A model generated the notes under the pieces. It was not told the DNA's origin. It did not search any database and saw only the letters and a list, made by a program, of their open reading frames with translations. A stretch of 64,000 bases of DNA from Malacoraja senta (lineage: Eukaryota): NCBI GenBank assembly GCA_038087875.1, contig CM075992.1, positions 4,528,001-4,592,000 of the forward strand, in the 5' to 3' direction. Shown here piece after piece: positions 1,361-50,213 of this stretch. Every line of letters begins with the position of its first letter. The first letter of the stretch is position 1. The position numbers were made by a program, and so were the translations under genes.

Positions 1361-3066
1361 TTAAACATTGTGTTTAGTGGGGGAGTGTGAAAGGGGAGAG
1401 GTGAGGGAGAGAGTGACTGAGGGTAGGGAAAAGGAGAGGGAGGGAGAGGTGACAGAGAGACCATGGGATCAGCAGCTTCAAGGGGAGAAAGGAGAGAGTG
1501 AGATTTCCCTCCTTCCCCCCCCCACACGTGGGAAGGATTGAGAGAGACAGTGAAAGAAAGGCAGTTATGACGTCACAATGCCCTACCAGCTACAATGTTG
1601 ATATCCCAGAACAGCAAATATACTTCAGGTAAAGAATCTGCCAGCCTAACCCAGCACAGCAAAGTTGAATGATTATATTTGGATAACAAAAGATGGCCTT
1701 GTCTTATGGCACCTACATCACAATAAATCTTAGTGCAATTGCATTTTTTTAAAGTTTAAAATGAGGGAGGGTGAAAATATTAGCTGACCTGCACTGTTGG
1801 GGGCTATGGGTGAGTGATGGAATATTACATTGGGGGAACGGGTTGCGTAGGGGGAACGGGTGAATGGTGGAATCTTACCTTGCGGAACGGTTTGCGTTGG
1901 GGGACCAGGCCTCCCATGTGACAGGGACCCAACAGGTGAGTGGTGGAATGCTATGTTGTGGAACGGCTTGCATTGGTGGACCTGGCCTCCCGTGGGGGCT
2001 CTGGGTGAGTGGTGTAATATTGCGTTGGGGGAAGGGATTACGTTGGGGGAATGGGTGAGTGGCGGAATAATCTTGTTTGTTTGTATGTATGTGTGCATGC
2101 GTGTGCGCTATATTCCAAAACCCTGCTACCATTTTTGGACCACCTTATTCACTATTATCCTGGAAAGTAAAAGAAACAAGTTTTGTTCGGATTGATGGAA
2201 TATTTTACAAGTTATTGACATTTTAAACTTTCCAGAAATCACTTTTCAAACCACTTTTCCACTTGCCCTGCCCGTCAGCCACGTTACAATGATGTCACAA
2301 TGGGATCCCAAATCTCATTTACATTAAAAAATCGTGATTTTCAAAAAAACAGTTTTAATTCAATTCTTCCGTTTTCATTAACAGCTAACATTGTGTTTAG
2401 GTTATTTTAAAGAAAAAACGCGATTTTCATTGTGGGGGTTGGGATTGGGGGGAGGTTTCATTTAAAAAAACGTGATTTTCATTGTGGGGGAGGTGGAAGA
2501 GGGGGAGGTGACGAGTGAGGGAGCAGGGAGATAGAGGGAGAATAAAGTGGGGGAGCTGAGGATGGAGAGTGGGGGAGGAGGGGGGTAGAGGGAGAGGAGG
2601 GAGGGAGTGGGTGAGATAGGAAATGGGAGAGGAGGGCAGTGGAAGAGGTGAGGAGGGAGAGGGGGTGGGATTGAGGGGAGATAAGGAGTGGGGGAGCAGG
2701 GAGATAGAAGGAGAGGAGGAGGTAGGGAGAGGAGAGCGGTTTTGGACGGAGGGAGTGACTGAGGGTAGCGGAAAGGAGAGGGAGGGAGATTGAGGGAGGG
2801 AGTGGGGGAGGGGAGGAGGAGAGGAAAGAAGAGGGAGGGTGAAACGAGGGAGTGCTGGGTGATGAGGGGGAATGGAAGAGGATAGGGGTAAGGAAGAGGG
2901 ATGGCGAGGCGCAGTTCGGGGAGGGTTGCCGTGACTCACGTCACAACGGGGATCTCTGGCGTCACAACAGGAGCCCCTTGGCCGCACCTGTGCTGTTGGG
3001 GGCTATGGGTGAGTGGTGGAATATCGCGTGGGAGGAACGGGACCCAGCAAGTCCCACTTGGTCTAG
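1360..3066 (+). mobile_element. Non-autonomous Helitron-like element(s); 5' end uncertain
   Basis: Ends gggacccagcaagtccc-acttggt-CTAG|T; internal motifs shared with other copies. Confidence 0.6.
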
Positions 3067-3114
3067 TCCTTTATAATAATTCTTGTAACTATAAAACTCT
3101 GATCTTGGATGTGG

Positions 3115-3159
<45 letters not shown>

Positions 3160-4690
3160 ATTTACCCCCTGGAGTCCAAAATCGGCTTACCTGAAAATGT
3201 TTATTTTTGAGTTATGAATAAAAATCTTCACAAATCCGATCAAAGTTTGAATTCAAAACGCCAGATTTTTTGTTGATGACGTGACAATGGATCTACCTGC
3301 CTGCCGTGCCGTCTGCGCGCGCTGCGACTGACGTCACCCCCCCCCCCCCCCGACCACTCTCCCCGTACTCGGGCCATGCCTACCAAAGATCATAGAGCAA
3401 AGCCTGCAGCCTGGAACGATGTTCGGGAACCAGCCCTCCCCTCTGACGACGTGTACCCCCTCCCCTCACACTCTACCCCACTCCCTCTCTGCCCCCCTCA
3501 CCGTCCTTCTCTGCCTCCCGTGGGGTCAACGGGTAGAGGACGGGTATTTTTTGCAGCTGGGAGCGAGGGATTATTGTGTTCTGGAACCATTCCTCCCCTG
3601 TAACGACGCCCCCCCACCCCTAAAACTCTACCCCCCTCGCTCTCTGCCCGTCTCACACTCCCTTTCACCCACCCCTCCCTCTCTGTGCCTCTGTGTCCCT
3701 CTCTGTGTCTCTGTGTCACTCTGTGTGCCTCTGTGTCGCTCTGTCAGGGCTCAAAATTAACTGTTGCCCGGGTGCCAATGGCCACCTAACGTCCTGCCGG
3801 GCAACCTCAAAGTCGTGTAATTTTGCCCGGCTTGGCAAGCACCCGGGACAGCTGCCGTTCAACGGGCCCCCCTCTCTATCTCTCTGTCTCTCTCCATCTC
3901 CGCCCACCATCCGTATCCGGGTCCGGGCCGCTGGTTCTGCGCTCTCCGTCGCTCCTCATCCGCTGGCATGGCCGGCCGCCTTGACATGCGCACTGCCACG
4001 GCCAGCACATCCTCCCCCTGCACATGCGCACAACCAGGGCCAGCACATCATCAGCCGCCGTGCACATGCGCACTGTCACGGCACCTGGTCGGCGCCGGCC
4101 ACTTTCTCTTTCCCTTTGCATTGTGGGAGATCTGGCCGCCATTGCTGTCCGGTCACCGCCTCACTGCGACCGCTGAAAACCAACGCAGAATCACTCCGTG
4201 GAGCTGGAGTAACTCTCTGGAGTAACTCTTGCTTCTTGGTTTCCTGGTCCTCCAAAAATATTCTGAATGGAATTTAAACTGGAGGTGGTGGAGGGTCCAT
4301 CATCAAACTCCAAACTCTGAACAATAACAGCCTATTGCACTTTATCTGTTTATCCGTTTCGACATTTGATAAATGCCTTATCAAGTGACGTTTTGGTAGA
4401 GACCCTTATTTATACTCCCTCTGGTTTTAATGTTTTTAGTTTAATTTAAAGATACAGCGTGGAAACAGGCCCTTCGGCCCACCGAGTCCACACCGACCAC
4501 CGATCACCCGTACACTAGTTCTATCCCACACATTAGCGGCGTAAGTCAAGAGTGTTTTATTCTCTCACGTACCAGTTAGAACAATGAAATCCTTACTTGC
4601 AGCAGCACAACAGAATATGTAAAGATAGTACTCTGTAAACAATGTTATAAATGAGAAAACAAAATGTATATTTATATATGAATATATCTA

Positions 4691-5896
4691 TCTATATTTA
4701 AAACTCTGTGTGTGTTTCTGCCTGTGTGTGTGTGTTTCTGCCTGTCTTGTGGGTGCCAGCCTTCCTTTGATTCGTTGCTACGCCAACACCACACGCAGAA
4801 ACGCCGAGATTTTTTCCATTTCGGTAGAGATTTCACTTTTCATTCCAAGTATCCACTTCTGATTAAATTTCGTCATGTTTATGTACACATTTTTAATAAA
4901 ATCCTACTCCCCCCCCCCCCAAAAAATGTCAAAATGTTTTTAAAAAAACAGCTCTCACCCATAGAATGTTGGTGAACGTTCCATCGTGTGATGTCACTGC
5001 CCAATGCTCACATATGTCCAATCGGAATGGATCCATTTACATATGCCTTTGCAGCAGCCCCAGCCCCAGCCCTCCCCCCCCACCCCCGCAGCCTGTGTCG
5101 AAGCGCGTCATCACGTTTGTGGGAATAGAGAAAGAGGATTGGGGGTGATAGGGAATGGGGAACAGATGGACTGTCCCTACCCCTCCCCTTCCACTCTCCC
5201 ACCCCCACTATTCCCCTCTCTCCCCCCCACCCCTCTCCCCCTCCCTCCACACACTTCCCCCTCCCTCCCCTACCCCATCTCCCTCCTCCCCTCCCTCCCC
5301 CCCTCTCCCCATCCCTCTCTCCCCCTCCCCATCCCTCTCTCCTCCCCCTCTCCATCTCCCTCTCCTTCCCCCATCCCTCTCACCCCACCCCCCTTCCCTC
5401 TCCCCCCTTCCCTCCCCCACCCCTTCCCTCTCTCCCCACCCCCCCTTCCCTCTCCAACCCCCTTCCCTCTCTCCCCCACCCCCTTCCCCTCTCCAGTCTT
5501 CCCCCTCCATCCACACTCTTCCCCCTCTACCCCCTAACCCTATCTCTGCTCTCTCTCTTTGATCTTTATCTTTTTCTCCGCCCTCTCTCTCTCTTCCACT
5601 CTGTCTGTACACACTCTCTCTGCCCCCCCCTCTAGATGCACCTGAGAGGTGAGGGCTATTCGTCAGTGGATAGGGTGGAGATGGGATAAAAGAAGCCCAT
5701 TAATAAAATTAAGATAATATCAAGGGGTGTGATGAGTGTGTGTGTTTGTGGGTGCCAGATTCCCACCCCGCAACCGTGCTTTGGAGGAACAGACCCAACG
5801 GGGGGGGGGGGGTGGTTAGTGTGATGCCGCAGCCCCCCCCCCCCCCCGCAAACGCGCGTTGGGGAAACAGACCTAACGGGTCTGCACTTAGTCTGG
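4691..5896 (+). mobile_element. Non-autonomous Helitron-like element
   Basis: A|TCTATATTTAAAACTCTG ... cagacctaacgggtctg-cacttagt-CTGG|T. Confidence 0.75.
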
Positions 5897-5977: not shown

Positions 5978-6679
5978 CTTTCTTTCTTTCTCTCTTCCCC
6001 CCTCCCCCCCTCTCTTCCTAGGCCTCCTCCATGGCCAGAAAGAACTGTAGATGCTGGTTTAAACTGAACATAGACACAAAAGGCTGGAGTAACTCAACAG
6101 GTCAGATAGAATCTCAGGACAAAAGGAAAATATTACGTTTTGGGTTGGGTCTGAATTAAGTTCCTGCACACCTTTGGAATGTGAAGGAAACAAGAGCACC
6201 TGGAGAAAACCCATGCGTTCAAAGGGAAAAGGAGCAAACTCCATATGGACAGCACCCATATTCAGGATCAATTCTGGGTCTCTGGCACTTTTAGGCAGCA
6301 ACTTTATGGCCAATGTACTGCCCCATAGTCTTGAACTGAATTAAAAATATACAGTAGCTGTGAAGGGGGACATAGCATCGCTTAGAGATTTAAGACTGAA
6401 AATGAATAGTTTCTTGTTTTTAGTAACCAAAGTTATCAACGTATAATTTTGTGTGTGTTGGAAAACAAAATATAGAGGCACAGCTAGCAGACTTGCTGTC
6501 TCACACGCCAGAGATCTGTGTTTGATCCTGTCCTCGGGCACTGTCTTTGTTGAATTTGCACATTCTCCCTGCAAGTGTGTGGGTTTCCTCCCACATCCCA
6601 AAGACACATTGGCTTTGTAGGTTAACTTGTCTCTGTAAAATTGCCCCTAATGTGTAAAACAAAGTGGGATAACAAAACT

Positions 6680-7860: not shown

Positions 7861-8839
7861 TGATCATATGCTGAATAATCCAACCACATTTTTGTTTGGA
7901 AGTGGAAAGAAATAATAGAACTTGCATTCAATGCAACGTGTAAAAAGAGTTGATATACTGTATTATAATTTTCCTGCATGTCTTTGTGGTATATATCATG
8001 TCTTGTTTGGCACGGACACTATAATAACTGGCACTGGCCACTTCAATAACTGGCACTGGCCACTCAAATCAGCCACCCCGGACATGTTTATGATTGGTCT
8101 TACTGTATTTTAACATTGTTTTTATCTATTTTAACTTTATACTGTTCCATCAGGGACTGGATTGTTTTTAGTGTTGTTATTATGTGTGAAATGTTTTAAA
8201 CTTCATGTGCGATGCTCCGGTATTCCCTGGGAAACGTCTTTTCGTTTTGCACTGCACAACTGTTGCTTGCAAGATGACAATATAGGAATTGAATTGAATT
8301 GAATTGAATTGAATTGAATATGTTTAGTTTGTGATTTCATTTGAAGCAGAAATAATATGTGAATGCTTCATTGACCATCATTCCCTACTGGTAACTACGC
8401 ACTTTGTCCGAGCACATTATCGCACACGTCATGCAAGCTGTCTTAAATGACCACCTAAACTGTCATTTGGCAACCTTAAAAGCTGCCAAGGTTGCCCAGC
8501 TAACAACAACTGTCCATCTCTGTGCCTCCCTGTATCCCTCTCTGTGCATCCCTGTGTCCCTCTCTGTGCATCCCTGTGTCCCTCTCTGTGCATCCCTGTG
8601 TCCCTCTCTCTGTACCCCCCCCTCTCTAGCCACGCCTGTGAGTTGGGAGCTATACGTGAGTGGATAGGGGAGGGGATGGGGTAAAAGGAGTGAATGAATA
8701 ATATTAATATAATATCAATGGGGGTGGTTAGTGCGTGTGTGTGAGGAGTTGGTGTGTGTGTGTGACGCCGCAGGCTGCCTCCTCCCCCCACAACCGTGCG
8801 TTGAGGGGACGAGACCCAACGGATCCCACTTGGTCTAGT

Positions 8840-31000: not shown

Positions 31001-34000
31001 CTCGTGAGGCAGACATCCAAACTTTGAGAGGTTCTGAGTATTATCGATTACAAATGAGCTTTGATTTTGAACTACTCCAGTTATAGGGGTACTGTCTGTG
31101 CAGAGCTACTGATCACAGCACCAAACACCTGAGTTTGATCATCGGGTGCTGTCTGTGTCGATTTTCCTCCCACATCCCAAAACACATGCAGGTTTGTAGG
31201 TTATTTGGTTTCTGTAAATTGCCCTAGTATGTGGGATGAGAAGGTTGGATAACGTAGGTGTAAACGTCACCTACTCCAAAAATGCTGCCGACCTGCCAAG
31301 TTACTCCAGCACTTTATAGCAGCTTCTTGTTTTGCAGCCGTTTCAGCCTTGTGTGGGTGGTGCTGCTGCAGCTTTTAACACATTTACACTATGGGCCGGG
31401 AAAGCATAGCAACAGTTCTTCTTCCTTCGAGTACTAATGAAATTTGGTATGGCTTCAAACTATTCTTACCAATTCCCACAGAGGCACCGATAAAAGCGTT
31501 ATCAGGATGCATGACAACAAGGTTTGGCAACTGCTCTGCCCAAGAAATCGCAGAGAGTTATGTATGTGGCCCATCAGGCAAACCAGCATCCCCTCCATTG
31601 ACTTCATCTACACTTCGTGCTATCTCGGTAAATAATTCAACATAATCAAAGACCACCTGCACTCTGGTCATTCTCTCTTCTCCCTTTTTCCATTGGATAG
31701 ACGGTTAAATAAAAACTTGAAAGCACGTAGCTTTAGGAACAGCTTGTTCACAACTGACCTCTCACAGCTACGTTTTTATTACTGATCTCACAACCTACCT
31801 CATTATGAGTGTCGAGTGGTGGCGCCATAAAGTGTGGCAGCCTTCCCTGCAGCTGTTCGTTCTTCACCCTTTTTTAAATTTTTAGTTTGTTAAAAAGTTT
31901 TGTTCTGGAGGCCTTTTAGTCTTTTTATGTGGGGATGTGGGGGATGGGGTAAGGGGGAAACCGTTTTTTCCAGTTCCTACCTGGGCGAGGATACGTCTGT
32001 CTGCCGAGCCGCATCTTCGCCTGCTCTGCGCAGCCTACCATTCGAATTGGTGCGGCCTTTCCTACCGGAGACCGGCCTGAGCTGCGAGCTGCAGCTTCAG
32101 CACCACAGTGGAGCGGGGCGATGACTTGCCCGGATCGCTCTGTGGAGCCCCGGAGTGCCGACTTCAACATCGTGGAGTTGTGGTCTGCGGAGCTTCCAGC
32201 CGCGGAGGCGCTGACTTTAAACACCACGGAGCCTGGGATCTTTCGCGGAGGTCGCCAGTGTTGGAGCTCCGCCCAGCGCGGCCTACGGACTTCGGGAGCT
32301 GCGGTCTCCGGTAAGAAGTGGCCGTTTCGGAATTCCAAGCCGCCTAGAGCGTTCTTCCGACGCTGGAGTACCATCAACCCGGCGAGAGGGCCTGAAATAT
32401 CGTGTGCCATAGCGGCGACTGTGAAGGCTACAATAGGCCCCACGGGTGAACATGGAGGAAGTGACTGAAGTTTGTTGCCTTCCATCACAGTGCGAAATGT
32501 TGATCCCGCTGTGAGGGGATGTTTTTTATGTTTAATGTTAAATTTTATAATATGTTTATTTTTATCCGTGTTGTAATGGCAACTCAAATTTCACTACACC
32601 AACTGATGTATGTGACAATAAATGTCCTTGTCCTTTGTCCTTTTGTATGACCCTTGTTCCTTTTCTCGGTAGCTGTAACACTATATCTTTCACTTTGATT
32701 ATTTTGAGCTTAATTGCACTCATCTATCATATCATCTAACTATTAAACCTACACCTCCACTCCCCCCTCTCCCCACACCCACACCCTCCCCCACTCTCTC
32801 CTCCCCCCCTCCCCCTCCCCTCCTCTCCCTACCGCTCTCCCCTGTGTGTGTGTGTAGGGGGTCGTTAGTGTGTGTGACACTGCAGACCCCCCCCCCCCCC
32901 ACCCCCCGTTCCCCCTTGGTCTAGTGACTATTAAAACTCTCTTCGTGCATTTGTTGCTTTGTTTGTTTTCAAGTCAGTCATATCTCTTCCAAAACCCGAC
33001 GCCGTAATGGAGAAATTTTTACATATTCCGGTAGAGATTTACCTAATGAATTCAAAAATCTCATCTGAAAATTTGGTTAATTATTTCCCGAGTTTTTAAA
33101 CTAAAATCGTTTAAAAATATAACTGCTACATGACGTCACAATGCCTTTGATTCTCGCGACCAGCAGCGCAGATTTTCAATGCGCAGCCTGTTACGTGGGT
33201 TGAAGCCCGTGATCAGGTCGTCCAGCGCTCTCCGCTTGGCTTCATGAAGTTCATCAACATGGCAGCGGCGGTTGTTATTGCAGCGCCGCCGCAGACAAGC
33301 GCAGTTGAAAAGTCCCCGTCGTGCCCGTTACAGGGGACGACATCCTCTCCGTCTCCCCCACCCGATCGTCTGTCCGGCCTGCTGCGCTATGTTCCACGCA
33401 CAGCGAGTGAAGCCACGCTCCCTGCCCGGCCTACTTCCTCCAGCAGCTAACCGCTCCTCCCCGCTGCGAACCGCTCCTCCCCGCTGCGAACCGCTCCTCC
33501 CCGCTGCTAACTGCTCCTCCCCGCTGCTACCTGCTCCTACCCTGCTCCTCCCCCCCCCCCACCCCACCCCACCGCTTCGGGTTTCCTGAGAGATGCCGAG
33601 AGTTAGGCCCTGTACTAGAGCTCTCTCTCTCTTTTTTCACAGCCCAATCCTTCCTCTTCCTCCCCCCTCCCTCTCCCCTCCCTCTCTCCCCCTCTCCTCC
33701 CTTCTACCTCCCTCCCCTTCCCTACTCCCCCCCTCTCTTCCCACCTCTCCTCCCGCCCTCTCTTCACCCACACCACCCTCCTCCCATTCCCCCTCCCTGT
33801 CCCACCCCCTCCCCCTCTGCCCCCCTCCCCCTCTCCCTCTAACCCCGCTCACCCTCCCTCCTGTGTGTGTGGGGGGCTGTTAATTGTCTGTTTGACACCA
33901 CAGCCCCCCCCCCCTCCGCAACTGCGCGTTGGGGGGACGGGACCCAATGGGTCCCCTTGGTCTAGTATATATTAAAACTCTGGATGTTTACTTGTTTGTG

Positions 34001-37000
34001 ATCTTGCTTTCAAACTTGAACTTTTTGTTTGATTCACATCTCCTCGACGCGGTAACAGTGCCATTTTTACATATTCTGGTAGAGCTTTACCTCGTGATTT
34101 AAAAAATCCCCTCATCTGAAAATTTGGTTAATTATTTCTAGTTTTTTACTAAAATTGTTCACCAATCTGACATTTTCAAATCTAACAGCTGGATGACATC
34201 ACAATGCCTTTGCTCCTTGCAGCTAGCTGCGCATAATTTTCAATGCGCAGTCATGAGCTCCGAGTTACGTGCCCAGTCGCCCTCCCTACCACGCCCCCCC
34301 ACCCCCGGCTCTGGATTTAAGCCTTTGAACACGTGATCTAGTCGTGCTGCACGCTCCGCTGGGCTTCTTGAAGTTCAACAACATGGCGGTGGTGGTCGTT
34401 ATCGCAGCACGGCCGCAGCTAAGCACAGTTGAAAAGTGGCCGTCGGCCCATCACAGAGGACGACCTGCTCTCTGTCTCCCCGCCCGATCGTGTGTAACGC
34501 TGGTGAGTGCGCTTACCCTCGCGGAAGCCACGATCGGCCGGCCCTCCGCTGTTTTCAGCGTCCTCAGAGCGCTCCGGGCCTCGCTCTGGTCCATGACAGC
34601 TGCAGCCTAGCTCAGGCCCGGCGCCTGATGGGGAGGCTTGTGCTCTGTGACTTGGGTAGGTCCTGCCTCTACCCCCTCCCCTCTACCCCCTCCCCGGTGC
34701 AGAGAAAGAGAGAGAGGGGAGTGTGAGAGAGGGGGAAGGAGAAGGAGGAGATGGATGGGGGATGGGGAGGGGGGGTGGGTGGAGAGGGGGGATGGAAAGA
34801 GGGGGAGGAGAGGGGGGGAATGGAGAGGGTGGAGGAGAAGGTGGGGGGATGGAGAGTGGGGCAGAGGGCCCTTCCTCTCTGCCCCCCCACTCTGCCCCCT
34901 CCATCTCTGCCCCCTCCATCTCTGACCCCCTCCATCTCTGCCCCCCTCTTCCTCTCCACCCCCCTTCCTCTCTGCCCCTCCCTACCTCTCGGAACCTCCC
35001 TCCCTCTCTGACCCTCCCTCTCTGACCCCCCTCCCTCTCTAGATAATCCCCCATTTCCCCCCCCTTCCCTCCACCCTCTCCCTCCACCCTCCTCCTCCAC
35101 CTCACCCCTCCCCCTCCCTCCCTTGCCCCCTCTCCCCTACTCACCCCCTCCCACATCCACCTCCCTCCCTCCCTTGCCCCCTCTCCTACTCTCCCCCGTC
35201 CCCTCCTCCAGCCCATCCTTCTCCCCTCCACCTCAACTCGCCCCTCCTCCTCCCCTCCCCCCTCAACTCCCTCCCTCTCCCCTCTCCCCCCACACTGCCC
35301 CATTCCTCCCCTCCCCTCCCTCTCCCCCTCCCCCCTCATCTATCTCCCTCTGCCCCCTCCACCACTCCCCTCCTCGCCCCCCTCCACCACTCCTCTCTCT
35401 TCCCCCTCCCCTTCCCTCTCACTCTCATCCCCCTGTGTGTGTGGGGGGTGGTTAGTGTGTGTGACGCCGCAGGCCCCCCACCGCAACTGCGCGTTGGTCT
35501 AGTGTACAATACAATTTGACTGAATAGCACACAATGTTTTCACTCTTAATACCCGTAACAATAATAAACCAATACCAGGAATTTGTTATTTATTGTGCAA
35601 GACCTTGTGTTTGGCTTTAACCAATCAAGAACCAGCTTTAATTGTGCCTCAGTGGGTAACATTTCATCTTTCACCTTGAAGCCAGAGGCTTAAGAGCCAG
35701 GCTGAAGAGCATCCCTTAAGACTCAAGTTCTGAGGAAGTGCTGTCATCATGGAGTGCGCTGCTTTTTCAGGCAAGGTGTTAAACCGAGCAATGAAAGCTC
35801 TCATGGAAGATCTGATTGAAGAGCTAACGCTATTTCCTGATTATGATCAGGATTCCCCACCACAAAAACAGAAAACGCTCATAATGTTTGTGGGAGCGTT
35901 CTAAGCACAAAGTTTGTCAGCAGAACATTACAATTAAAAAATAAAGCTCGTTGGGAGGTATTTTTCTCATAATTATCAAAATATAAGAATCTCTTACCTT
36001 CTCTAAATAAATGATCAGTGATCCTGCAGTAGACAATGCCTTGTCTACTTCAAATCTTGATATATACGTCTCAATTCCATTTTAAGCTGGAAGGATGATA
36101 GAATATTTGTTTTTAATGCATGGTTTGTAAAAAAAAGTTCAATGTGGAAATAGTAATCTGATGTAAATATAAATCCATTATGTGTTTTAAAAGTCTCAAA
36201 CCCACTTGGTGGTAGTAGCAGAGTTCAGGAGGCAGCTGAGCAAAAGGCTCAGAAGAAGAGGAGTACAATTAGGTTGGATTCAACTTGAATTGGGAGTAGC
36301 AATGGAACTGAAGGGTGGGAAAAGTACCAGTGTGGTGAAAGTGAGGGGGACAAGGTTCGCAGCAGCGGTGAGAATCAGTAGGTAAACATTTTGGTTCACA
36401 TTCTTTGAACATCTCTTCCAAATTAACATTTCAGTGAAAGGTTCTCCCTGACCCGATTAACTGTGTGCATTGTTTGATTTAAACTGAGATGACATTGTTC
36501 AATCAATCAAGTAACCTGGAGTATTAAAAAACAAGGAACTGCAGATGCTGGTTTTACAAAAAATAAACAAAAAGCACTGGAGTAACCCTTCGGGACCCAA
36601 CCCAAAACATCACCTATCCATGTTCACCAGAGATGCTGCCTGACCCGCTGAATTGCTCTAGCACTTTGTGTCTTTTTCTAATCCAGAATAATATGCAGAC
36701 ATGGTTCACAGTTGTTAGGTTATGGTTATTGCCCCATGTCGAATGTCTCAATATCATTAGAACACATCCCTTTTGTATCCTTAGTTGGAGATACAAGAAC
36801 ATTTCCTCAATATAAATTGAAGTCATTCTTAATAAATTAAAACACAACATACTTGATTCAGATCAGGGATATCTGGAGTGAATCCAGTTAACATGGAAAC
36901 ATCTAAAATAACCATTGAGGTGTTTGTTGCACCAAGGTAGCTGTAAAGGACAAATTAAAATAGATTAATAACAAGACAGATCTCGGGACTTAACAACAAG

Positions 37001-38383: not shown

Positions 38384-38434
<51 letters not shown>

Positions 38435-41400
38435 GGCCCCTGCGCAAGGATGACACGCAAATTCGTGAAGCGTTCCATATTTTTAAAAAAAGAAAAAAAA
38501 AAAAAATATATTACTTTCTGAAGCATTATAGGCAGCACAGTGGCGCAGTGGTAGAGTTGCTGCCTTACAGCGCCAGAGACTCTGGTTCAATCTTGCCTAT
38601 GGGTGCTGTCTGTATGGAGTTTGTACGTTCTCCCGGTGACTGCGTGGGTTTTCTCCGAGTGCTCCTGTTTCCTCCTGCGCTCCAAAGACGTACAGGTTTG
38701 TAGGGTTAATTGGCTTCGGAAAATTGTAATTATCCCCAGTGTGTAGGATAGTGCAAGGTGATCACTGGTCTGCATGGATTCAGTGGACCGATGGGCCCAT
38801 TTCAACTCTGTATCCCTAAAGTCTAAAGACAAAGTAGCTGCTGTAATGTAATAGCCATCTGGACAGAGCAAGACTTCAGCCTATCATAGGTGCAGCTTTT
38901 GAGGGAAAAGTATTGACCATGATACCTAAAGGGCTTGTCCCACTTAGGTGATTTTTCAGCGGACTGCTGGCGACTGTCAATTCGCCGGCAGTCGCCTGAA
39001 AAATCGGGAACTGGAACGGCGACTGTCAGAGTGGAACACACAGACACATCGCAAAGGCATGGGCCAGGGCAAGCGGGGGGGGACGCTGTCTGAAATTCAC
39101 ACGGTGCAAAGCCATGGTAATACAGACACACACCGCGATGAACAGAAAGGTTAAGACAGCTAGCACAGTGTATGGTAAGTCCTTTAAAAGATGGGGAGGG
39201 GGGAGAAAGGGGGAGAAGGAGTGGAGACACTTTTAAGAAGCCAGACAACTTTTAATAAGACAGAGATACACAGCTGTGAAGTTCGGCGGGCATTTAACAT
39301 TATCGGTTGGTTTTCCTTGCTTCGGAAAACTCGTGCTTACGTTTTTTTTCCCCCCAATGAGCCAATGAAAATGACCGGTCAGCAAAGGCGATTAACCCAA
39401 ACTACCTCGAGTACCTATAACTACATGGCGACCCCACTACAACTGCATCTACGACTACAGGATTATCAATTTTCTCCAAGGCGACCAAATATTTGGTCGC
39501 AGAACATTTTTCAACATGTTGAAAAATTTGCGGCGACCATACTGAGGCCGCGACTAGTTCCCCTAATGCGGGAACTCCTCGCGACCATGAAGGAGACTCA
39601 CCAGAGACCACTAGCGAACATGTGGCGATCATGTGGCGAGCGCAGAGTCTCCTGCACTCGCCTACAAAGTCGCCAAAGTGGACAGGCCCAAAAGAATACC
39701 ATTCACCTGAAAGCTCAGACAAAACGTTCATTCATATCTGATTGACAAAATATCACCTCCATTAGTGCAGCATTCTCTCAGTGTTACACTATTGAACGAT
39801 GTGGAACTGGACCATGTGGTTATATATCTGGAGTACAATCTAAATCCATGACTTTTTTGGAAGCTTTATCAACAGAGTCAAGTGGGTTTTTTTTTGCTGT
39901 CAACTTTTAACCTCATACCTTGATCCCACTTCAATGGCTATTTGTCTGATGCCTGTATCAGTGAAAAGAGTCAAATTGCTGTGGAACGATTTCTCTGGTC
40001 AATTCAACTTTTCAACCTAATTCAATATCTGCAAAATTGTTTCAGATGTGGAATTAATACAATGAAAAATGAGACAATTCCTTGAGCTCAGATGCTCATC
40101 ATATCGAGTCTGACACGAGTTCCTTTCCTGATCCTATGCCCTGCTCGAACTATTCCAACTTTAAAAACATCCTGAAGCATCCATTGGCTTGAATAAATGT
40201 ACAACAGAAAGGGGCCATTTGGCCTTTTGCATCCACATTAACCAAAAGCATACAAGATTAATCACATTTTTCAGATGTTTAGGGCTCAAATGCTCGACCA
40301 GCTATTTAAAAAAAAAGTGGCAATAGTTTCTCCATTTACCATCTTTTGAGGCAGCCAATTCCAGACCCCCACCGCTGATGATATCAATATAATTTTTCTC
40401 AACTTCCCTCTCATCTTTATTTCCATTTTTGATAATCTCTATCATTACTCCTGCTTGATATCAACTTTCCTGCAATGTTAATTTCCTTGGAAAAACCTTG
40501 CAGTATTTAAAGTGACATGCATGAAGATAAGCCTTAACTGCTGCAAAGTCTAATAACACAAAGAATCGGAAATAAAAATGACCCTTCGATGGAAGATTGG
40601 CAAATTATTACAGACTCACTGCTGGTACATATTACTGTGTTACTTCATCACACTCCTGAATTAAAAGCAAGGCAGCTATTTCCTGCTGCTAAGTTAACAT
40701 CTTTTTTTTGGGTCATCAAGACCCTGGTTGTCTGACAGACATGTAGAGGGACTGACAGACGAATAGTTATGAAGCTGGGAGAGAGAGAAATGGGGGATTC
40801 ACAAGCAAGATAGAGTAGAGATGGTTCTAGAGTGAAAAGGATATGGTGAGATCTTATTTAACTTTTCTTGACAAAGTACAAGAATTTCAACTATGAATCT
40901 TGTTTTTTTAGCTTGTATTTCAGCGTTTGCTGTGGACCAACTAGTACAGAGTAGCTAATTATTAAGAAATAAAGCTCCCATTGTATTGCTCACCTTTCTC
41001 AATATTTTCAACAGTTATTTTCAAATTGAAATTCTTACATTCCTTTTTATCCTTGGGCAACATTGCATAGTAAGTTCCCAAAACCTATATAATAGAAATA
41101 AAGTTAGAGGTTACCTGTCAGGAGTCAAGAGTCAAGAGTCAAGAATGTTTTATTGTCATATGTCCCAGATAGAACAATGAAATTCTTATTTGCTGCAGAA
41201 CAGAATATGTAAACATAGCACACTGTAAACAATATAATAAACAAGAGTTCAGTGTATATATACACATATACTCACAAGTACACACACACATATATATAAT
41301 ACTAGATTAAGTGGGACCCGTTGGGTCCTATGTTCACATGGGAGGGCTGGTCCCTCGACACAATATTCCACCTCTCCACCAATTCCAATATTGGTGGCCA

Positions 41401-44400
41401 GTGGGGGGTGGGGTTTCTGGAGCGTTGGTATGGGTGTTGTTGGCTGCAGGGACTACTGGTCTCCAGAGGGCAAGTATGGACATTGTGGGCCAAATGGATT
41501 CTTGGGGTGGCAGCTCAGTCCCTCAAGCCTGATGAACTGGCAGCTCACTCACGGCTGGTGGGCTGGCAGTTGACTCACAGCTATTCCTTGAAATTCCATT
41601 TCAAGCAGAGTTCATGGCCACCAAATTCAAATCCATTTTCCTACCATTTCAAGCAGGGTGCAGGGCCACCAAATTCAAGTGCAGTAGCAGGGTGCAAGGC
41701 CACAAAATTCAAGTGCAGTTTCATACCATTTCAAGGAGGGTGCAAGGCCACCAAATTCAAATGCAGTTTCATACCATTTCATGCAGGGTGCAATGACACC
41801 ACATTCAAATGCAGTTTCATACCATTTCATGCAGGATGCAAGGCCACCACATTCAAATGCAGTTTCATACCATTTCAAGCAGGGTGAAACCACCATAAAA
41901 CCACACAAAACACCACTCTCACAGTTCAGTAGACATTCAGTGTGTTCAGTTGATTCACAGCTCAGACAGAGTCACGACCTCTCCCTCCCCCATCATGCAG
42001 AGACTGAGCCACACCCACACTTCTGGGTTTTATATTCCCTCCCCCTCCCACCGGAAAAGGTGTGGCCTTCATGGTGTGATTGACAGGAGAGAGATTCTCA
42101 ACATTTTTTTAAACACTAATAACACTTTTGTTTTTCTTTGATGGGAAGAATCCTCTGCACCTGATGAGCGGAGGGAGACTGAGTAAGATGACCAAAAATG
42201 ACAGCCGTAAGTGGTAGCATTTTATCCAAAATCAATATAGTGCAAACAGGAAGTTGTCAAGTTTAGACAAACAACCATTTGCAGGCAGTGCCTTTTCACT
42301 TCAACCCAAACCCCCCAAACAACCATTTCCAGGCAGTGCCTTTTCACTTCAACCCAAACAACCATTTGCAGGCAGTGCCTTTTCACTTCAACCCAAACCC
42401 CCCAAACAATTATTTGCAGGCAGTGCCTTTTCACGTCAACCCAAACCCCCCAAACAACCATTTGCAGGCAGTGCATTTTCACTTCAACCCAAACCCCCCA
42501 AACAACCATTTGCAGGCAGTGCCTTTTCACTTCAACCCAAACCCCCCAAACAACCATTTGCAGGCAGTGCCTTTTCACTTCAACCCAAACCCCCCAAACA
42601 ACCATTTGCAGGTAGTACCTTTTCACTTCAACCCAAACCCCCCAAACAACCATTTGCAGGCAGTGCCTTTTCACTTCAACCTAAACCCCTCAAACAACCA
42701 TTTGCAGGCAGTGCCTTTTCACTTCAACCCAAACCCCCCCAAACAACCATTTGCAGGCAGTGCCTTTTCACTTTAACCCAAACCCCCTAAACAACTATTT
42801 GCAGGCAGTGCCTTTTCACTTCAACCCAAACCCCCCAAACAACCATCTGCAGGCAGTGCCTTTTCACTTCAACCCAAACCCCTCAAACAACCATTTGCAG
42901 GCAGTGCCTTTTCACTTCAACCCAAACCCCCGAAACAACCATTTGCAGGCAGTGCCTTTTCACTTCAACCCAAACCCCCCAAATAGTAAGATTAAACGAG
43001 AACTTACCAGTTTGAAGTTTGATCTTTATTTTATGAGGAGTTACGTTGGTGATTACGTGAAGAAGACCCGTCAGGGCGCATGCGCGTCAATCTTCAAAGC
43101 AGCGGTGTGAAATCACAAAACACCAATAACGAAGTGACGTAGTAACATAGTAAAAACGAGTAAATTTTAGAACTTCCAGCTGACCTTTATGAAAGAGGGT
43201 TGGGCGTGGTGGGCACGTAATCACCAACGTAACTCCTCATAAAATAAAGATCAAACTTCAAACTGGTAAGTTCCCGTTTAATCTTACTATTTTGCTTCGG
43301 AGTCACGTGACTACATGAAGACTTTAAAGCTTTGTGATTTCATGCCGCAGATTCAAATCCCGGCTTCTCACTGCATTGTTTGACTCGGAACGAGAAATAA
43401 TCAATAATGCATTAATGACATTTGCATGAAAATATGCAGTAATTCATTTATTTGAATAATATAATTAACAGTATCCCCATTAACCCAGGGGAATTTAAGC
43501 AGAACTTAATATAGTATCTGCAAACAGCCCCGTATTGGCAATAGGCCGATGGTAAAAGTGTTGAAACACCAACTTATTAGATCACCCGGCGGCTGCGAGA
43601 ATATGGTCGACGTGACGTCCTTCGCCCTGGCCGCCGATGTTGCTGCTAAATCGAATGGGATGTAAAAACATCACTAACACCTGCAGCAAACCAAGACTTG
43701 TTTTAACCATCTTGAAATAGTCTGAACTGACACTATCTTGTATGGTTTTTCGTGAATGATAAACAATCTTGTTTTCATATTTCATAAGACCTTTGTAGCC
43801 TCAATGTATTGCAATAAATATGTCTTAACACATAGACATGGATCCATGGAATATGCTAATAAAACACTCTTGAATCCTGTCACACCTGACCCTACTTCAT
43901 TTGAGTAGGTCATAAATGTAAAACAACATTATCCTGAGGTACGTCCATCCTGTGTATCTGTAACTTTTGTAATGTCTGCACTCTCTGTGCTTGTTACAAG
44001 TGCCATAAGCATGACTACCTTCATGCTGAATTTGGCCAAAATCAGAATCGTACCAAGTCCATTGATGAAGTAGCTTAAAACCACTCTATATTACAGATTG
44101 CCATACCTAGGTTTAGAAGGTCTGGAATTAAAATTCCTTTCATTAATCTGGAAACGAAAGAACGAGACTCAACAGGATGTCTTTCTGACCCCATCAATAA
44201 AAAACGAGGACAATGTACTTCTGGCTGAATAAATCGCACTATAACTCAACCCCTCATAATAGAGTGTTGAGAAAAGCTAAGACATTTGAGACATCTGCCG
44301 TACAACATTCAATATTCTTTTGTACAGAAAATTTCCCCATTCTTTACATAATGGGAAAGCAGCATTTACAGAGTCACAACCTCAGATTCGCAAATGTACT

Positions 44401-47400
44401 GCTTTTGAGTGCTCTTCCGCCAGACTGCTGTAAGCATGTCCACAGTATGCCCAGACAATCCTCTTTTTAAAACCTGCAAATTAACAGATCCATACAGGCA
44501 TATAACGGATGTTACTCTCCAATTATCGGATACACCAGTAAATCCCTTCTTTTGGGAACGTTTATCAGAAACTGTGTCATTAATTCCAATATCAAAGGGA
44601 ACCATGGCTGCGTAGACCAGTCCGGTACCACCAGTACCCCAGAGGCAGCATCCTGCTTCATTTTAAGCAGACACCGGTTTATGAGACAGAATGATGGAAA
44701 ATGCATATAAAAACATACCACCCTAATGTAGCGAGAAAGCATCAATCGCTACTGTCTCCCGATGTAGTTGCCATAACACATATCTCTGTAACTGGTGATT
44801 GAGTCTGGATGGAAACAAGACGTATCTGGCTTCCCAAATCTGACTACTATATCATTAAAATCTTAAGATTCAACATCCATTCTTTGTTATCATGGAAATT
44901 CCCGTAACCTGGTGTCTGCTACTATATTGAATCTACCTGGTAGATAAATAGCTGAAACCAAATATTTGTCAACACACCAAGTCCAGATTTGATTAGCCAA
45001 TTTGTCACATGACACCGACTTAATTCCACCCATACGATTAATACATGCCATTGCTATAGTATTGTTAATTTGAAGTTGAACATGCAGATTAGTTGTATTA
45101 ACAACAAGCTTGGAGCTCATAAGCCTTCCAACAGCTGTAAAACGTTGATTCTCCATGTCTGCAAAAAATAATGCCTCTTCCATATTACATCTTTCCACAG
45201 ATGGATACTATTTCAGTGGCACCAATCCTAGTGCACTGACATCAGTCTGTAAGGCCATGGAAGACTGTTCAATCAGTATCTTGCTCGAACTACTGGAGAC
45301 ATGTTAAATCCACCACTGCAAATCAGAAGCAGCATTTGTTGTTTAACTGCATGGCTTATCAAAATGGCCACCATGCATCTTGGTGCCTTTTCTTTTTGCC
45401 GTCTGTAGCTGCTGGTAGTGCAATGGCCCATATTGTATTGCTGGAAATAACACTAATTTTCCTAGCAAGCTGGCCACCTGTCTTAATTGAAGATTGTTGC
45501 TTTTTCAACAGCTTAATGCAACCATCAATCAGCTCTACCCTTTACCCAGGGTAAAATTACTACCATGTCAATTGAATCGATTGTGAAATTAAAATAATCA
45601 ATTGTTGTAAGTGGCGTTAACCTTGATTTCTCTGGATGAATTAAACCAAAACTTTCAAAAGTGGATTGAACAATTGAGAGAGATAACTCACTAATTCTCT
45701 TGTTCGTCCAATTTAGGGCATCATCCAGTAAGCTGTCCTTGGACTCTAATTAGCCCCAAAATTGGTTTTACCAATTTAGTGAAATTCTAGGAACTGAAGT
45801 TTACCCATTAGACAGAACTTTGAATTGCCATAATTGTTTCATTCAGATAAATTTCAAATATTTAAATCTTACAAATGAACAGACACCGAGTAATATACAT
45901 CTTTCAGATTTATAGGTGCCATATAACATCTTTTGAAATAAGTTGTTTGACAGTCTCAAAGTCTCCATTTTGAAGTGTCTATACTTCACAAAATTTTAAA
46001 GACGTGTCAGATCTAAAATACTCCTCACCTTTTTAGGTTGAGAAAATCTAAACACAATTTGGTGGTTTTGATAAACCAACCTTTCAATTACTTGTTTATA
46101 GACAAATTTTCAAATTCAGCTTGAACCCCGATCGCTTCTTTTTGTGAAATTGGAGTGTTCTGCTGGGAACATGCTGGATGGCAAATCACTATTTGGATCG
46201 AATCAATTCGAAACCTTTGAATAATAGAATAATGAATCTGAAGTAATTTGCTTCCAATATTGGGCTGTTTTTGCCTTAATATGTTACCATGAGAACCAGG
46301 TCCACCTACCTCCTTTGTCACCTGAGTGACCTGTGGTCCCTGGCTCCTGGCAGGAAAACCCATGCTTTTTTGTGTTCCCACTGCAGGACGCCAACTGCGC
46401 CCCTGCTTCAATGCTCGACTTGTTCCTGGTGTAGGCCCAGGATTCTGTATGATGTCTGAAAGGATACCTCCTCTTCACAGACTTGCCGACCATCGATGTT
46501 TTGATCAACCTTGCTGTTTTTGCCTCATCATCCAACTCTTTCCCACGTTTCGTGAGGTTTTTCTCCGAAGAGTAAGTTGAGTGACTGCACATTGCTGGGC
46601 TTTACAGAGTTGTTGCAACCTGGGGTTGATGGTGGGCCGAATGGCATACTTCCTAAAACAATTCATCTCGAAGTGGGCGCTACATAGCAACCCTAGTGCC
46701 TCTTGGTGCATCTCCATCCCTGGCCTCCATCCATTGTTCTTGCAAAAATGCAGTTGTTCCTCAACCCAGCAGCTTCAATATTCTCTGCAGTTTTATTTCT
46801 TAGGCTCACATGCCCTCGCCCATCTGACCCCTTATATCTTGGTTCACTGCTAGTACTTTCAGCAATACGCAGTTCCTTGGGGTCTCGTGCTTTTTTGGCA
46901 TTTTCATCCATCGTAAGCTACTGGAGCTGATGGAAGACAAAATAGTTGATCGTAGAGGCCACTTCTTCTCCCAGTGGCTCTCCTGACTCTGACGGGGCAG
47001 CGAATCGTACTGCCAGGAGTAGAACATCTGGCAGCTGCCGTCTTCACTTGTATCGGCCTCACCGTCAGAGTCAGGGTCAGAACTCTCACAGAGCAGCGAA
47101 TCGTACTGCCAGAAATAGAACATCTGGCAGCTGCCGTCTTCGCTTGTATCGGAGAACTATGCTGACACTGTGCACGCGCCTCATCAATGAAGGAGCTATC
47201 AAGCAGCCCTTTACTAGGTGCTGCTGACCTGGCTTCCGCAGCATGGCTCTGACATCACTCCTCCTGGAGTATGTCTTGTTGGAGCAACCTGTGTACAGGT
47301 TCTCCATTTGGAATATTCACTCAGAAAGTGGTATCCAGCCTTGGAGGTGAATCCCAAACTGACTCTTGCTCCATGGACCTGACTTGCATGTTGGCTAGCG

Positions 47401-50213
47401 CCCAACTGATGCTGGCTCAGTTCTTTTTCTAAATACACAAGTCCACAAGTCGCCCCACTCCCAGCCGGCGACTGTTACAGGGGTATGAGGCAGCCCTTCA
47501 CCAACCGCATTCCCGCGGCTCTCTATCGGCTTTGCGGCTCGCCTCTTGCCCTTGCCCGTTTTGTTCATGGTGCCTGTGAAAAAATCGCAACAGACCACCA
47601 CAGCAAACGGACCTAAAAAACTCCCCAAAAAGTGTTTTACTTACCTTGGAGTTGTAAAAACTACATTCCACTAGAGGAGCTCTGTTCCTCACTTCCGTGA
47701 GCGCCAATGCGTCTGACGTAATGACGCACATGCGCCCTGACGGGTCTTCTTCACGTAGTCACTCACGTGACTCCGAAGTAAAACAACCATTTGCAGGCAG
47801 TGCCTTTTCACTTCAACCCAAACCCCCCAAACAACCATTTGCAGGCAGTGCCTTTTCACTTCAACCCAAACCCCCCAAACAACCATTTGCAGGCAGTGCC
47901 TTTTCACTTCAATCCAAACCCCCCAAACAACCATTTGCAGGCAGTACTTTTCCACTTCAACCCAAACCCCCCAAACAACCATTTGCAGGCAGTGGCTTTT
48001 CACTTCAACCCAAACACCCTAAACAACCATTTACAGGCAGTGCCTTTTCACTTCAACCCAAACCCCCCAAACAACCATTTGCAGGCAGTGCCTTTTCACT
48101 TCAACCCAAACCCCCCAAACAACCATTTGGAGGCAGTGCCTTTTCACTTCAACCCAAACCCCCCAAACAACCATTTGCAGGAAGTGCCTTTTTCCTTCAA
48201 ACCAACCATATTTTCATTTTCAAACCACATTAAGGGCACTCACAGTTGAGTGGACATGTGTTCAGTGTTATTCAGAGCTCAGAGAGACATGACCCTCTGG
48301 CTTCCTCCATCTTGCAGAGACTGAGTGAGGTACATCACTTCCTGGTTTTATAGTCCCTCCCCCTCCCTCCAGCAGGGGCAGCAGAGAGAATGGTAAATGT
48401 TTAAAAAACAATATCTCTCTGATCTTTCATCGATGGGAAAAATCCTCTGGTCCAGGAAGGCGGAGGGGAGCTCTGAGCGAGGTGGCCAAAAATCACGGCC
48501 GTAGTTGGCGGCGTTCTCTCGGATATCACAGCACAGTGAGCCAAAGACGGTCAAGATCAGACTTTTAGTAATATAGATATAGATAGATATATATCTATAT
48601 ATATATATATATAGATATATATATATATAGATAGATATATAGATAGATATATATATCTATATACTATTAAAACTCTGTGTGTGTGTGTGTCTGCTTGACT
48701 TGTGCCAGCCAGCCCCTTTGATTCCTCGCTATGCCACCACCGCACGCAGAAATGCCGAGATTTTTTCCATTTCGGTAGAGACTTCACTTTTCTTTACGAG
48801 TAGCCACTCCTGATTAAATTTTGTTGTGTTTATGTACACTTTTTAAAATAAAATCCATCCCCCGCCCCCCACACTCACTCATTTTGTCTCCTCCTGCTGG
48901 TCAGACACCATAATGGCTGCTGTCGACCGCCTCTGCTCCGAAAACGATGCCATCTTTTTTTCACCAGCGATTTTCATCCCGGGATCTTGATCACGTTCAG
49001 GCTCTAAAACCCCGGGTTCTGAAGCACGTTCTGTGTCCCGGGGTCTGAAGCACGTTCTGTGTTTTATTCGCAAGCTATTTTCACCCCGGGATCTGCACGT
49101 TCGCGATTTTTTCCGCTAGCGATTTTCACCTCGGGGTCTGACGCACGTTCGGGATCTAAAACCCCGGGGTCTGAAGCACGTTCAGTGTCCAGACCCAACG
49201 GGTCTGCACTTGGTCTAGTATACTTTTAAAACTCTGCATGGGTGTGTGTGTGTGGTTGTGGGTGTCAGATTTGGCCTTTGATTCATTGGTCCGCCAAAAC
49301 CACACGCGAAAACTCAGAGATTTTTTCCATTTCGCTAGACATTGCACTTTTACATACCCTAATACACTCATTAGATTTAGACATTTTTATGTACACATTT
49401 TAAAATAAAATCCATCCCCCCCCCCCCCTCACTCATTTTTTCGCCTCCTGCTGACCAGCCACCATAATGGCTGCTGCCGCCCGGCTCTGCTCCAAAAACG
49501 CCAACATTTTTATTCTTTCGCTGGCGATTTTCGCTGCTGCCGCCCGCCTCTCCTCCACTACACCCCCTCCCCCCGGGCCGGCTCTCTCACGCTGGCTCAA
49601 GCACACAGCTCTCCTCCAAAAACGCCGACATTTTAATTTTTTCGCTCCTGTCGCCCGGCTCTCCTCCACTACCCCCCCCCCTCCGGGCCGGCTCTCTCCC
49701 GCTGGCTCAAGCCAAACATCGGCTCTTCCCCGCTGCTTTTCGCAATCCTCTGTCCGAGGACGCCGAAAAGCAGCGGCGGGACAAATCAACTTTGCCTTCA
49801 GCCAGCGTGACAGAGCCGGCGCGTCAACGGCCTGTCGGCCCGCAGCCCCATTGTGGGCGTACGCAACGTCTCGACGGCCGTAAGCAGCGTCTCGACGTCG
49901 TACGCAGCGTCTTGACGCGTACGCCGCCTACGCCGTCAACACGCGTACGCCGTCAAGACGCTGCGTACGACGTCGAGACGCTGCGTACGGCCGTCCAGAC
50001 GCCGTCTACACTGTCAAGACGCTGAAGCACGTTCGGGAAACAGACCCCGGGGTCTGAAGCACGTTCGGGGACCAGACCCAACGGGTCTGCACTTGGTCTA
50101 GTATATATATATATATAAAATATATATATTATATATAATATATGTATATATATATTTATATATATATATTTATATATATATATTTATATATATATAATAT
50201 ATATGCATATATG

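What the first reader, a model, noticed from the sequence alone, without database searches (positions are those of the whole stretch)
3040..50101. Pervasive non-autonomous Helitron-like family with covarying terminal hairpin
Seen: eleven stretches end in ...(G/A)(G/A)T-CT(A/G)G|T, at 3066, 5896, 8838, 13333 (duplicate), 26836, 32924, 33965, 35502, 41302 (minus), 49218 and 50101. Most have a GC hairpin ~7-8 nt upstream, in two compensatory forms: GGGACCC-aac-GGGTCCC and CAGACCC-aac-GGGTCTG. Their 5' ends read A|TCTA..T(A/T)AAA(C/G)TCTG, with no TSD and very different interiors. Established: 5'-TC, a 3' hairpin plus CTRR, and A|T insertion without TSD define Helitrons. Inference: much of the ORF-less low-complexity DNA here is a diverse rolling-circle family that a protein-based annotation would miss. 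No RepHel gene is in the window.
Basis: partly seen in the sequence, partly recalled or inferred. Interest (0 to 1): 0.8.

Follow-up and report, generated by a model that had tools for sequence, protein, structure and literature searches.

The report
Abundant canonical Helitron family in a skate
The repeated ends in this window belong to an ordinary but very abundant family of Helitron (rolling-circle) transposons of a skate genome, whose protein-coding master copies lie elsewhere in the same genome and are predicted to move the non-coding copies seen here.

Summary
All eleven listed 3' ends are present; 13333 is an assembly-level duplicate of 8838, and six of the ten distinct ends still fold into the hairpin.

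- **Abundance:** strict patterns for the two hairpin forms match 5,060 and 4,870 times in the 1.94-Gb genome; reversed controls match 0 times.
- **Flanking bases:** T follows the 3' end in 197 of 200 listed copies. A precedes the 5' end TCTATATTAC... in 97 of 100.
- **Hairpin:** the two forms keep their base pairing (92 of 100 and 97 of 100). Cross forms are nearly absent.
- **Insertion site:** for one full copy, 18 of 29 paralogous empty sites run straight across the insertion point, 16 of them as A|T. There is no target duplication.
- **Coding partner:** the window has no RepHel gene. The genome has 112 Rep-domain matches and intact ORFs up to 1,766 aa (Helitron_like_N plus PIF1, full-length match to Helraiser). 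The same hairpin plus CTAG lies behind 8 of 10 fetched copies.

This is a new member of a known kind. Three things are worth noting:

- The RepHel copies are intact and 93-98% alike.
- Many elements stand in head-to-tail arrays.
- The nearest RepHel outside skates is from a freshwater snail.

The parts
3027..3066 (+). 3' terminus of element a. Hairpin decayed (GGGAC..GTCCC), ends CTAG|T. Its 5' end was not located.
3086..3110 (+). 5' end of element b (TAACTATAAAACTCTGATCTTGG), 19 nt after the end of element a. Its 3' end was not found.
   Evidence: The same 5' end is seen in L033.
4687..5896 (+). Complete non-autonomous element c, 1,210 bp: A|TCTATCTATATTTAAAACTCTG ... CT-rich interior ... CAGACCTAACGGGTCTGCACTTAGTCTGG|T.
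   Evidence: Its positions 479-1209 match the stretch behind the RepHel unit of L041.
8602..8838 (+). 3' part of element d, hairpin decayed. It recurs at 13092-13333 inside the 99.3% duplication.
23818..26836 (+). Element e of the GGG type. Its 5' end is clipped next to the tail of a retrotransposon. It is interrupted by a 5'-truncated non-LTR retrotransposon at 23848-25287, and its 3' end has an intact 8-bp stem.
   Evidence: It is 86-93% identical to the bounded copy L038:239-1529.
32737..32924 (+). Very short element f, 188 bp: 5' TAACTATTAAAC, CT-rich interior, hairpin replaced by poly-C, ends CTAG|T.
32925..33965 (+). Element g, 1,041 bp. It abuts f head to tail and carries the hairpin GGGACCCAATGGGTCCC.
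33966..35502 (+). Element h, 1,537 bp. It abuts g and its 3' end lacks the hairpin (GCGCGTTGGTCTAG|T).
41302..48577 (-). Element k of the GGG type on the minus strand. The 5' end TCTATATTACTAAAAGTCTG is at 48577 and the 3' end at 41302. The Helitron parts are 48216-48577 and 41302-42983. The middle holds a 48-bp minisatellite and about 4.8 kb of unassigned DNA, and the link between the two halves is inferred.
48656..49218 (+). Element i, 563 bp, CAG type: A|TCTATATACTATTAAAACTCTG ... CAGACCCAACGGGTCTGCACTTGGTCTAG.
49219..50101 (+). Element j, 883 bp, CAG type. It abuts i, and its 5' end lacks the TCTA that solitary copies have.
   Evidence: At least 14 end-to-end copies (query 1-883 or 1-881) on other chromosomes at 85-89% identity. 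Their flanks differ.

Best explanation
The eleven ends belong to non-autonomous members of a canonical Helitron family that has about ten thousand recognisable copies in this genome, and they are predicted to be moved in trans by the RepHel protein encoded by intact master copies elsewhere in the genome.

Shown here:
- The elements start with TC after a host A and end with CTAG before a host T.
- They carry a 7-bp GC stem 7-8 nt before the CTAG.
- They have no terminal inverted repeats and make no target duplication.
- The genome holds RepHel genes with an HUH motif, a tyrosine pair and a Pif1-type helicase. These genes are followed by the same hairpin and CTAG.

Inferred from what is established for Helitrons (recalled, mainly from work on Helraiser):
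1. RepHel nicks the top strand at the 5' A|TC.
2. It unwinds 5' to 3'.
3. It uses the 3' hairpin plus CTAG as its stop signal.
4. It releases a single-stranded circle.
5. It pastes the circle between an A and a T.

The two hairpin versions are two subfamilies that changed both arms together. This fits selection on the stem rather than on its sequence.
For: (1) Abundance and specificity.
- The CAG-type 3' pattern has 5,060 matches.
- The GGG-type 3' pattern has 4,870.
- The GGG-type 5' pattern has 1,929.
- Reversed-pattern controls give 0 in each search.

(2) Sharp boundaries.
- T follows CTRG in 99 of 100 and 98 of 100 listed copies, with varied bases after it.
- A precedes TCTATATTAC in 97 of 100, with varied bases before it.

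(3) Empty sites. The copy L038:239-1529 sits in a dispersed repeat. Of 29 paralogs, 18 run across the insertion point, and 16 of them read A|T there. Nothing is duplicated or lost.

(4) Hairpin pairing.
- In a sample where the 3' arm was left free, 92 of 100 have 5' arm CA with 3' arm TG.
- With 3' arm CC, 97 of 100 have 5' arm GG.
- Cross forms occur in 1 of 100 and 0 of 100.

(5) Coding partner.
- PF14214 has 112 matches in the genome, with open frames up to 1,766 aa.
- L041:2575-7755 is 1,727 aa with Helitron_like_N and PIF1 and no endonuclease.
- It matches Helraiser (7LCC) over residues 271-1721 at E 4e-222.
- It keeps PHFH, KYVIKY and GGTGKT.
- The CAG hairpin plus CTAG lies about 740 bp after the stop codon in 8 of 10 fetched copies.
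- A family-type 5' end lies upstream in contig C4719.

(6) Discrete units. Window element j has at least 14 end-to-end copies with unrelated flanks.

(7) No terminal inverted repeats: 5-7 of 15 terminal positions match, against a random mean of 6.0.
Against: - Only one insertion was checked against empty sites. Those sites are paralogous, not orthologous or allelic.
- At head-to-tail junctions the downstream element starts TATAC... and not TC. The 5' TC rule therefore holds for solitary copies only.
- In the RepHel copies the nearest hairpin plus CTAG is followed by A and by more family sequence. A second terminus lies about 1.05 kb further on. Most of these copies also share flanks beyond the fetched 10 kb. 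The exact ends of the autonomous unit are therefore not settled, and part of its copy number may come from segmental or array duplication.
- The window's own copies are old: 85-89% identity for type j and 86-93% for the GGG type.
- Nothing here shows present activity or transcription.
- The samples of 100 are the first 100 matches on one contig, and each pattern carried one restricting letter at either end.
Confidence: 0.93

Rival explanations
1. The motif marks a satellite or tandem repeat that spreads by unequal exchange or array duplication, not by transposition. On this reading the 'ends' are arbitrary points in a repeating unit.
For: - Runs of 3' ends spaced about 470 bp apart on contig C1.
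- Adjacent units of 401 and 474 bp that agree at 390 of the 401 positions of the shorter unit.
- About half of the listed CAG-type 3' ends are followed by another element's 5' end (counted by eye).
- RepHel copies share long flanks.
Against: - Thousands of solitary copies have unrelated flanks that begin exactly after CTAG and before TC.
- A precise A|T empty site was found.
- Neighbouring elements in the window (f, g, h; i, j) differ from each other in length and interior.

Arrays are better read as a secondary feature of a mobile family.
Confidence: 0.04
2. The family belongs to the Helentron or Helitron2 branch and not to canonical Helitrons.
For: Head-to-tail arrays are best known from Helentron-related elements of insects (recalled). 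One search showed only the listing of such papers.
Against: - No endonuclease domain in the 1,727-aa protein.
- The target is A|T, not T|T.
- The hairpin lies before the terminal CTAG, not after an inverted-repeat arm.
- No asymmetric terminal inverted repeat was found.
- The protein matches Helraiser, a canonical Helitron, over its full length.
Confidence: 0.02
3. The motif is an internal or tail part of another class of element, such as a LINE, a SINE or a TIR transposon.
For: Retrotransposon tails and SINE-like units lie next to or inside several copies.
Against: - Those elements have their own boundaries and interrupt the Helitrons: the retrotransposon at 23848-25287 splits element e.
- There is no poly-A, no target duplication and no TIR at the family's ends.
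- End-to-end copies stop exactly at the two termini.
Confidence: 0.01

Closest known systems
Helibat / Helraiser, the canonical Helitrons of vespertilionid bats
   Same: - RepHel architecture, matched at E 4e-222 over nearly the whole chain of PDB 7LCC, with the HUH motif and tyrosine pair in place.
- 5' TC, 3' CTAG and a subterminal hairpin.
- A|T insertion without a target duplication.
- Many non-autonomous copies per coding copy.

The features of the bat family itself are recalled, not read here.
   Different: - The host is a cartilaginous fish.
- The terminal sequences are different.
- Two hairpin subfamilies exist side by side.
- Natural open reading frames are still intact, whereas Helraiser had to be reconstructed (recalled).
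- There is extensive head-to-tail stacking.
RepHel proteins of the freshwater snail Physella acuta, as named by NCBI
   Same: These are the nearest named proteins outside skates, at 65-66% identity over 1,101 aa. They fall in one clade with the skate proteins, with SH-aLRT support of 100.
   Different: Their DNA termini could not be read with these tools. It is therefore unknown whether they share the family's ends.
Helitron-derived tandem arrays and satellites of Drosophila and bivalves
   Same: Head-to-tail arrays of short non-autonomous units.
   Different: Those arrays are mostly linked to Helentron-type elements (recalled). The papers were seen only as a search listing. Here the arrays mix unlike elements, and the junctions lack the downstream element's TCTA.
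Helitron2 / Helentron
   Same: Rolling-circle Rep plus Pif1 helicase.
   Different: This family has none of their features: no endonuclease, no asymmetric inverted repeat, no T|T target.

Membership tests
Canonical Helitron (Helitron1) | 5' terminus begins with TC | tested here: met
   Solitary copies begin TCTATATTAC... (1,929 exact genome matches) or TCTATATAC.... The rule is not met at head-to-tail junctions, where the element starts TATAC.
Canonical Helitron (Helitron1) | 3' terminus CTRR | tested here: met
   CTAG in 10 of the 11 window ends and CTGG at 5896. The genome patterns required CTRG; nearly all listed matches are CTAG.
Canonical Helitron (Helitron1) | Palindromic hairpin about 10-12 nt before the 3' end | tested here: met
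   A 7-bp stem with a 3-nt loop ends 11-12 nt before the terminus. It folds in 6 of the 10 distinct window ends. Pairing is kept in two forms: 92 of 100 and 97 of 100.
Canonical Helitron (Helitron1) | Insertion between host A and T without target-site duplication | tested here: met
   A at -1 in 97 of 100. T at +1 in 197 of 200. For L038, 18 of 29 paralogs are contiguous across the site, 16 of them as A|T. Only one insertion was tested in this way.
Canonical Helitron (Helitron1) | No terminal inverted repeats | tested here: met
   5-7 matches in 15 terminal positions in 4 elements, against a random mean of 6.0.
Canonical Helitron (Helitron1) | Autonomous partner encodes RepHel (HUH Rep plus Pif1 helicase) and carries the same ends | tested here: met
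   - Domains.
- Match to Helraiser.
- Catalytic motifs.
- Same 3' hairpin plus CTAG behind 8 of 10 copies.
- Family-type 5' end upstream in C4719.

The exact outer ends of the autonomous unit remain unsettled.
Canonical Helitron (Helitron1) | Mobilisation of the non-autonomous copies by this RepHel | not testable with these tools
   Needs a transposition assay.
Helentron | C-terminal AP-endonuclease domain in the Rep-helicase protein | tested here: not met
   Pfam finds only Helitron_like_N, REP_ORF2-G2P, PIF1, the Pif1 2B domain and weak helicase families. The helicase runs to residue ~1706 of 1,727.
Helitron2 | Asymmetric terminal inverted repeats and a T|T target | tested here: not met
   No inverted repeat. 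The target is A|T.

The most novel reading that the evidence does not exclude
A skate carries a natural, still intact and recently active canonical Helitron. It reached the skate lineage by horizontal transfer from, or together with, a mollusc-associated lineage. It builds head-to-tail arrays because new copies land in the A|T inside the TCTA|TATAC of a resident element's 5' end. If so, this would be a living vertebrate Helitron with defined ends and a self-targeting insertion habit.
Probability: 0.2. Interest if true: 0.6.

Novelty: new member of a known kind. Interest (0 to 1): 0.4.

Why it matters
**Annotation.** About ten thousand copies with very unlike, low-complexity interiors are easy to miss or to label 'unknown'. 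NCBI names the RepHel genes of two skates 'uncharacterized protein'.

**Transposon biology.** The family offers natural RepHel reading frames that are open and have all catalytic motifs, next to well-defined ends. This is rare in vertebrates.

**Hairpin function.** The two hairpin subfamilies are a natural test of what the 3' stop signal needs.

**Evolution.** The snail-skate grouping of the protein adds a candidate case to the known pattern of Helitron horizontal transfer.

None of this changes what is known about how Helitrons work.

Tried and rejected
- **Reads over 47000-53000.** I laid public runs there to look for an allelic empty site. All runs are Logan contigs of about 130 nt and the stretch is repeat throughout, so no contig bridges an element. 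No RNA holder was listed.
- **L036 empty site.** The one local paralog (L039) is broken by a SINE-like insertion a few bases after the site. The L036 copy is followed by C, not T. The result is inconclusive.
- **3' flanks against all fetched DNA.** Only L038 had repeated flanks. Its local hits start 24-40 nt after the junction, so the genome search was needed.
- **Earlier notes of this scan.** Nothing on Helitrons in this genome.
- **Literature.**
  - No paper in the held library has both 'Helitron' and 'Leucoraja', or both 'Helitron' and 'skate' as whole words.
  - The search was too loose to be useful.
  - Of the papers with 'Helitron' and 'elasmobranch' or 'cartilaginous', I read passages of four. 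They mention Helitrons in cartilaginous fish only at superfamily level (whale shark) or not at all.
  - Passages of the little skate genome paper do not mention Helitrons.
  - Dfam and Repbase could not be consulted, so the family may already sit in an automatic library.
- **5' end of the autonomous unit.** Comparing ten copies did not give a clean boundary, because most copies share flanks beyond the fetched 10 kb.
Full report
**Observation**

The eleven listed positions all end in ...TCT(A/G)G followed by T. A 12-mer for the last bases, with up to one mismatch, finds ten of them against 1.4 expected. The eleventh, 35502, has kept only the last ten bases.

The end at 13333 is not independent. 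It lies in a 99.3% identical 3.5-kb copy of 6637-10095 next to a run of N.

The hairpin core is also far above chance, with 11 matches against 0.9 expected. Folded as DNA, six of the ten distinct ends form the stem. Two are decayed and two have lost it.

The 5' motif occurs seven times against 0.8 expected. The window has no RepHel gene.

**The family in the genome**

The window is part of a 1.94-Gb assembly.

| Pattern | Matches | Reversed control |
|---|---|---|
| 3' end, CAG form | 5,060 | 0 |
| 3' end, GGG form | 4,870 | 0 |
| 5' end, GGG form | 1,929 | 0 |

In the first 100 matches listed for each 3' pattern, T follows the end in 99 and in 98. The next bases vary. In the first 100 5' ends, A precedes TCTATATTAC in 97, and the bases before it vary.

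Window element j (49219-50101) has at least 14 end-to-end copies on other chromosomes at 85-89% identity. Seven of them were inspected and have unrelated flanks. Four of those seven are solitary copies that start A|TCTATATAC.

**Insertion site**

One complete GGG-type copy (L038:239-1529) lies in a dispersed repeat. I searched the genome with its left flank and read 29 paralogs.
- 18 continue straight into sequence matching the right flank.
- 16 of those read A|T at the point of insertion.
- Nothing is duplicated and nothing is missing.

This is a paralogous test, not an orthologous one, and it was done for a single insertion. It agrees with the A at -1 and T at +1 seen in the samples.

The ends are not inverted repeats.

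**Hairpin**

Where the 3' arm was left free, 92 of 100 listed copies pair CA with TG. Three of the eight exceptions keep a wobble pair. Where the 3' arm was fixed as CC, 97 of 100 have GG in the 5' arm. The cross forms occur in 1 of 100 and 0 of 100.

These are two lineages, so the change happened perhaps once. It touched both arms at two positions, and both forms are about equally abundant. The GGG form is also one base shorter between stem and CTAG.

**Coding partner**

The Helitron Rep domain matches 112 places in the genome, with open frames up to 1,766 aa. One frame of 1,727 aa was examined in detail:
- It has Helitron_like_N and PIF1 and no endonuclease.
- It aligns with Helraiser from residue 271 to 1721 at E 4e-222.
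- It keeps the HUH motif (PHFH), the tyrosine pair (KYVIKY) and Walker A (GGTGKT).

Ten copies were fetched. Nine of them are 93.5-98% identical to the tenth (L041) over 4.7-7.2 kb. In eight of the ten the CAG hairpin and CTAG lie about 740 bp behind the stop codon.

That end is followed by A and by sequence that matches the interior of window element c from its position 479. A second terminus follows about 1.05 kb later and is visible in three copies. Upstream, the C4719 copy begins with a family-type 5' end and a module whose own hairpin is missing.

The master copies are therefore composite, and most share flanks beyond 10 kb. Which ends they move with is open.

**Head-to-tail stacking**

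Many 3' ends are followed at once by another 5' end. In the window these are f|g|h and i|j. In the first loci fetched it was 7 of 8 distinct CAG-type ends. About half of the listed CAG-type ends are followed by TATA(C/T/A), against 14 of 100 GGG-type ends (counted by eye).

At such junctions the downstream element lacks the TCTA that solitary copies have. The left ends of arrays carry (TCTA)n.

One reading would give exactly this: new copies land in the A|T inside TCTA|TATAC of a resident 5' end. It is an untested idea. Rolling-circle concatemers or array duplication may contribute as well, since adjacent units of 401 and 474 bp agree at 390 of the 401 positions of the shorter unit.

**Host and relatives**

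| Nearest proteins to the RepHel | Identity |
|---|---|
| Leucoraja erinacea (skate) | 96% |
| Rhinoraja longicauda (skate) | 74% |
| Physella acuta (snail) | 65-66% |
| Three unnamed sequences | 59-61% |
| All others listed | at most 46% |
| — of these, Myxine | 43% |
| — of these, Anolis | 41% |

NCBI names both skate proteins 'uncharacterized'. A quick tree of 22 rows puts the skates, the snail and the three unnamed rows in one clade with support 100. The sampling is thin and the root arbitrary. It is a lead for horizontal transfer and no more.

**What is known**

Helitrons are textbook elements, and every defining feature tested was met, so this is a new member of a known kind.

In the held library no paper pairs 'Helitron' with 'Leucoraja' or with 'skate'. 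The passages I read mention Helitrons in cartilaginous fish only as a superfamily in the whale shark. Dfam and Repbase could not be checked.

**Share of the window**

Hand-delimited elements come to roughly 10-11 kb of 64 kb. A small library of bounded copies from other loci hits 6.5 kb.

The rest of the window includes:
- 5'-truncated non-LTR retrotransposons with a reverse-transcriptase frame;
- SINE-like units;
- a U6 gene.

Noticed in passing
window 6637-16252: Near-identical repeats surround the N gap at 10930-11129: 6637-10095 = 11130-14586 (99.3%) and 9263-10929 = 14586-16252 (99.5%). This is either an assembly artefact or a very young tandem duplication. It makes the 13333 end a copy of 8838.
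   Followed up: partly
window 38378-38484 (+): Full-length U6 snRNA (Rfam RF00026, 118.8 bits) followed by an A-rich run. Whether it is a working gene or a retro-copy was not examined.
   Followed up: no
window 7-1360, 23848-25287, 30293-30976, 55790-57162, 63580-63993: Copies of one 5'-truncated non-LTR retrotransposon, 79-85% alike. They carry a reverse-transcriptase frame (RVT_1, E 1e-31, at 23939-25297 on the minus strand). One copy is nested in Helitron e.
   Followed up: partly
window 6689-6790, 7415-7532, 9719-9843, 54276-54360: SINE-like units of about 120 bp (gctggagtaactcagcgggtcaggcagcatc...gacgtttcgggtcgagaccc). They also interrupt paralogs of the repeats used for the empty-site test. 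Their family name is only recalled, not tested.
   Followed up: no
window 26148-26557, 41593-41886, 42268-42983, 47781-48205: A 46-48-bp minisatellite inside GGG-type Helitrons. Its copy number differs strongly between copies.
   Followed up: no
L041:2575-7755 (RepHel), residues about 100-330: The N-terminus is an E/R/Q-rich tandem repeat. The number of repeat units differs between genomic copies (DNA 2848-3577 of L041 matches other copies at several offsets).
   Followed up: no
L041:8493 and 9549; also L042, L044-L049: RepHel copies carry two 3' termini about 1.05 kb apart. The inner one is followed by A and by the 3' half of a non-autonomous element.
   Followed up: partly
proteins P0001, P0002 and their clusters: The RepHel of two skate species is annotated by NCBI as 'uncharacterized protein LOC...' or 'PIF1-like helicase'. 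Transposon genes are therefore counted among host genes.
   Followed up: no
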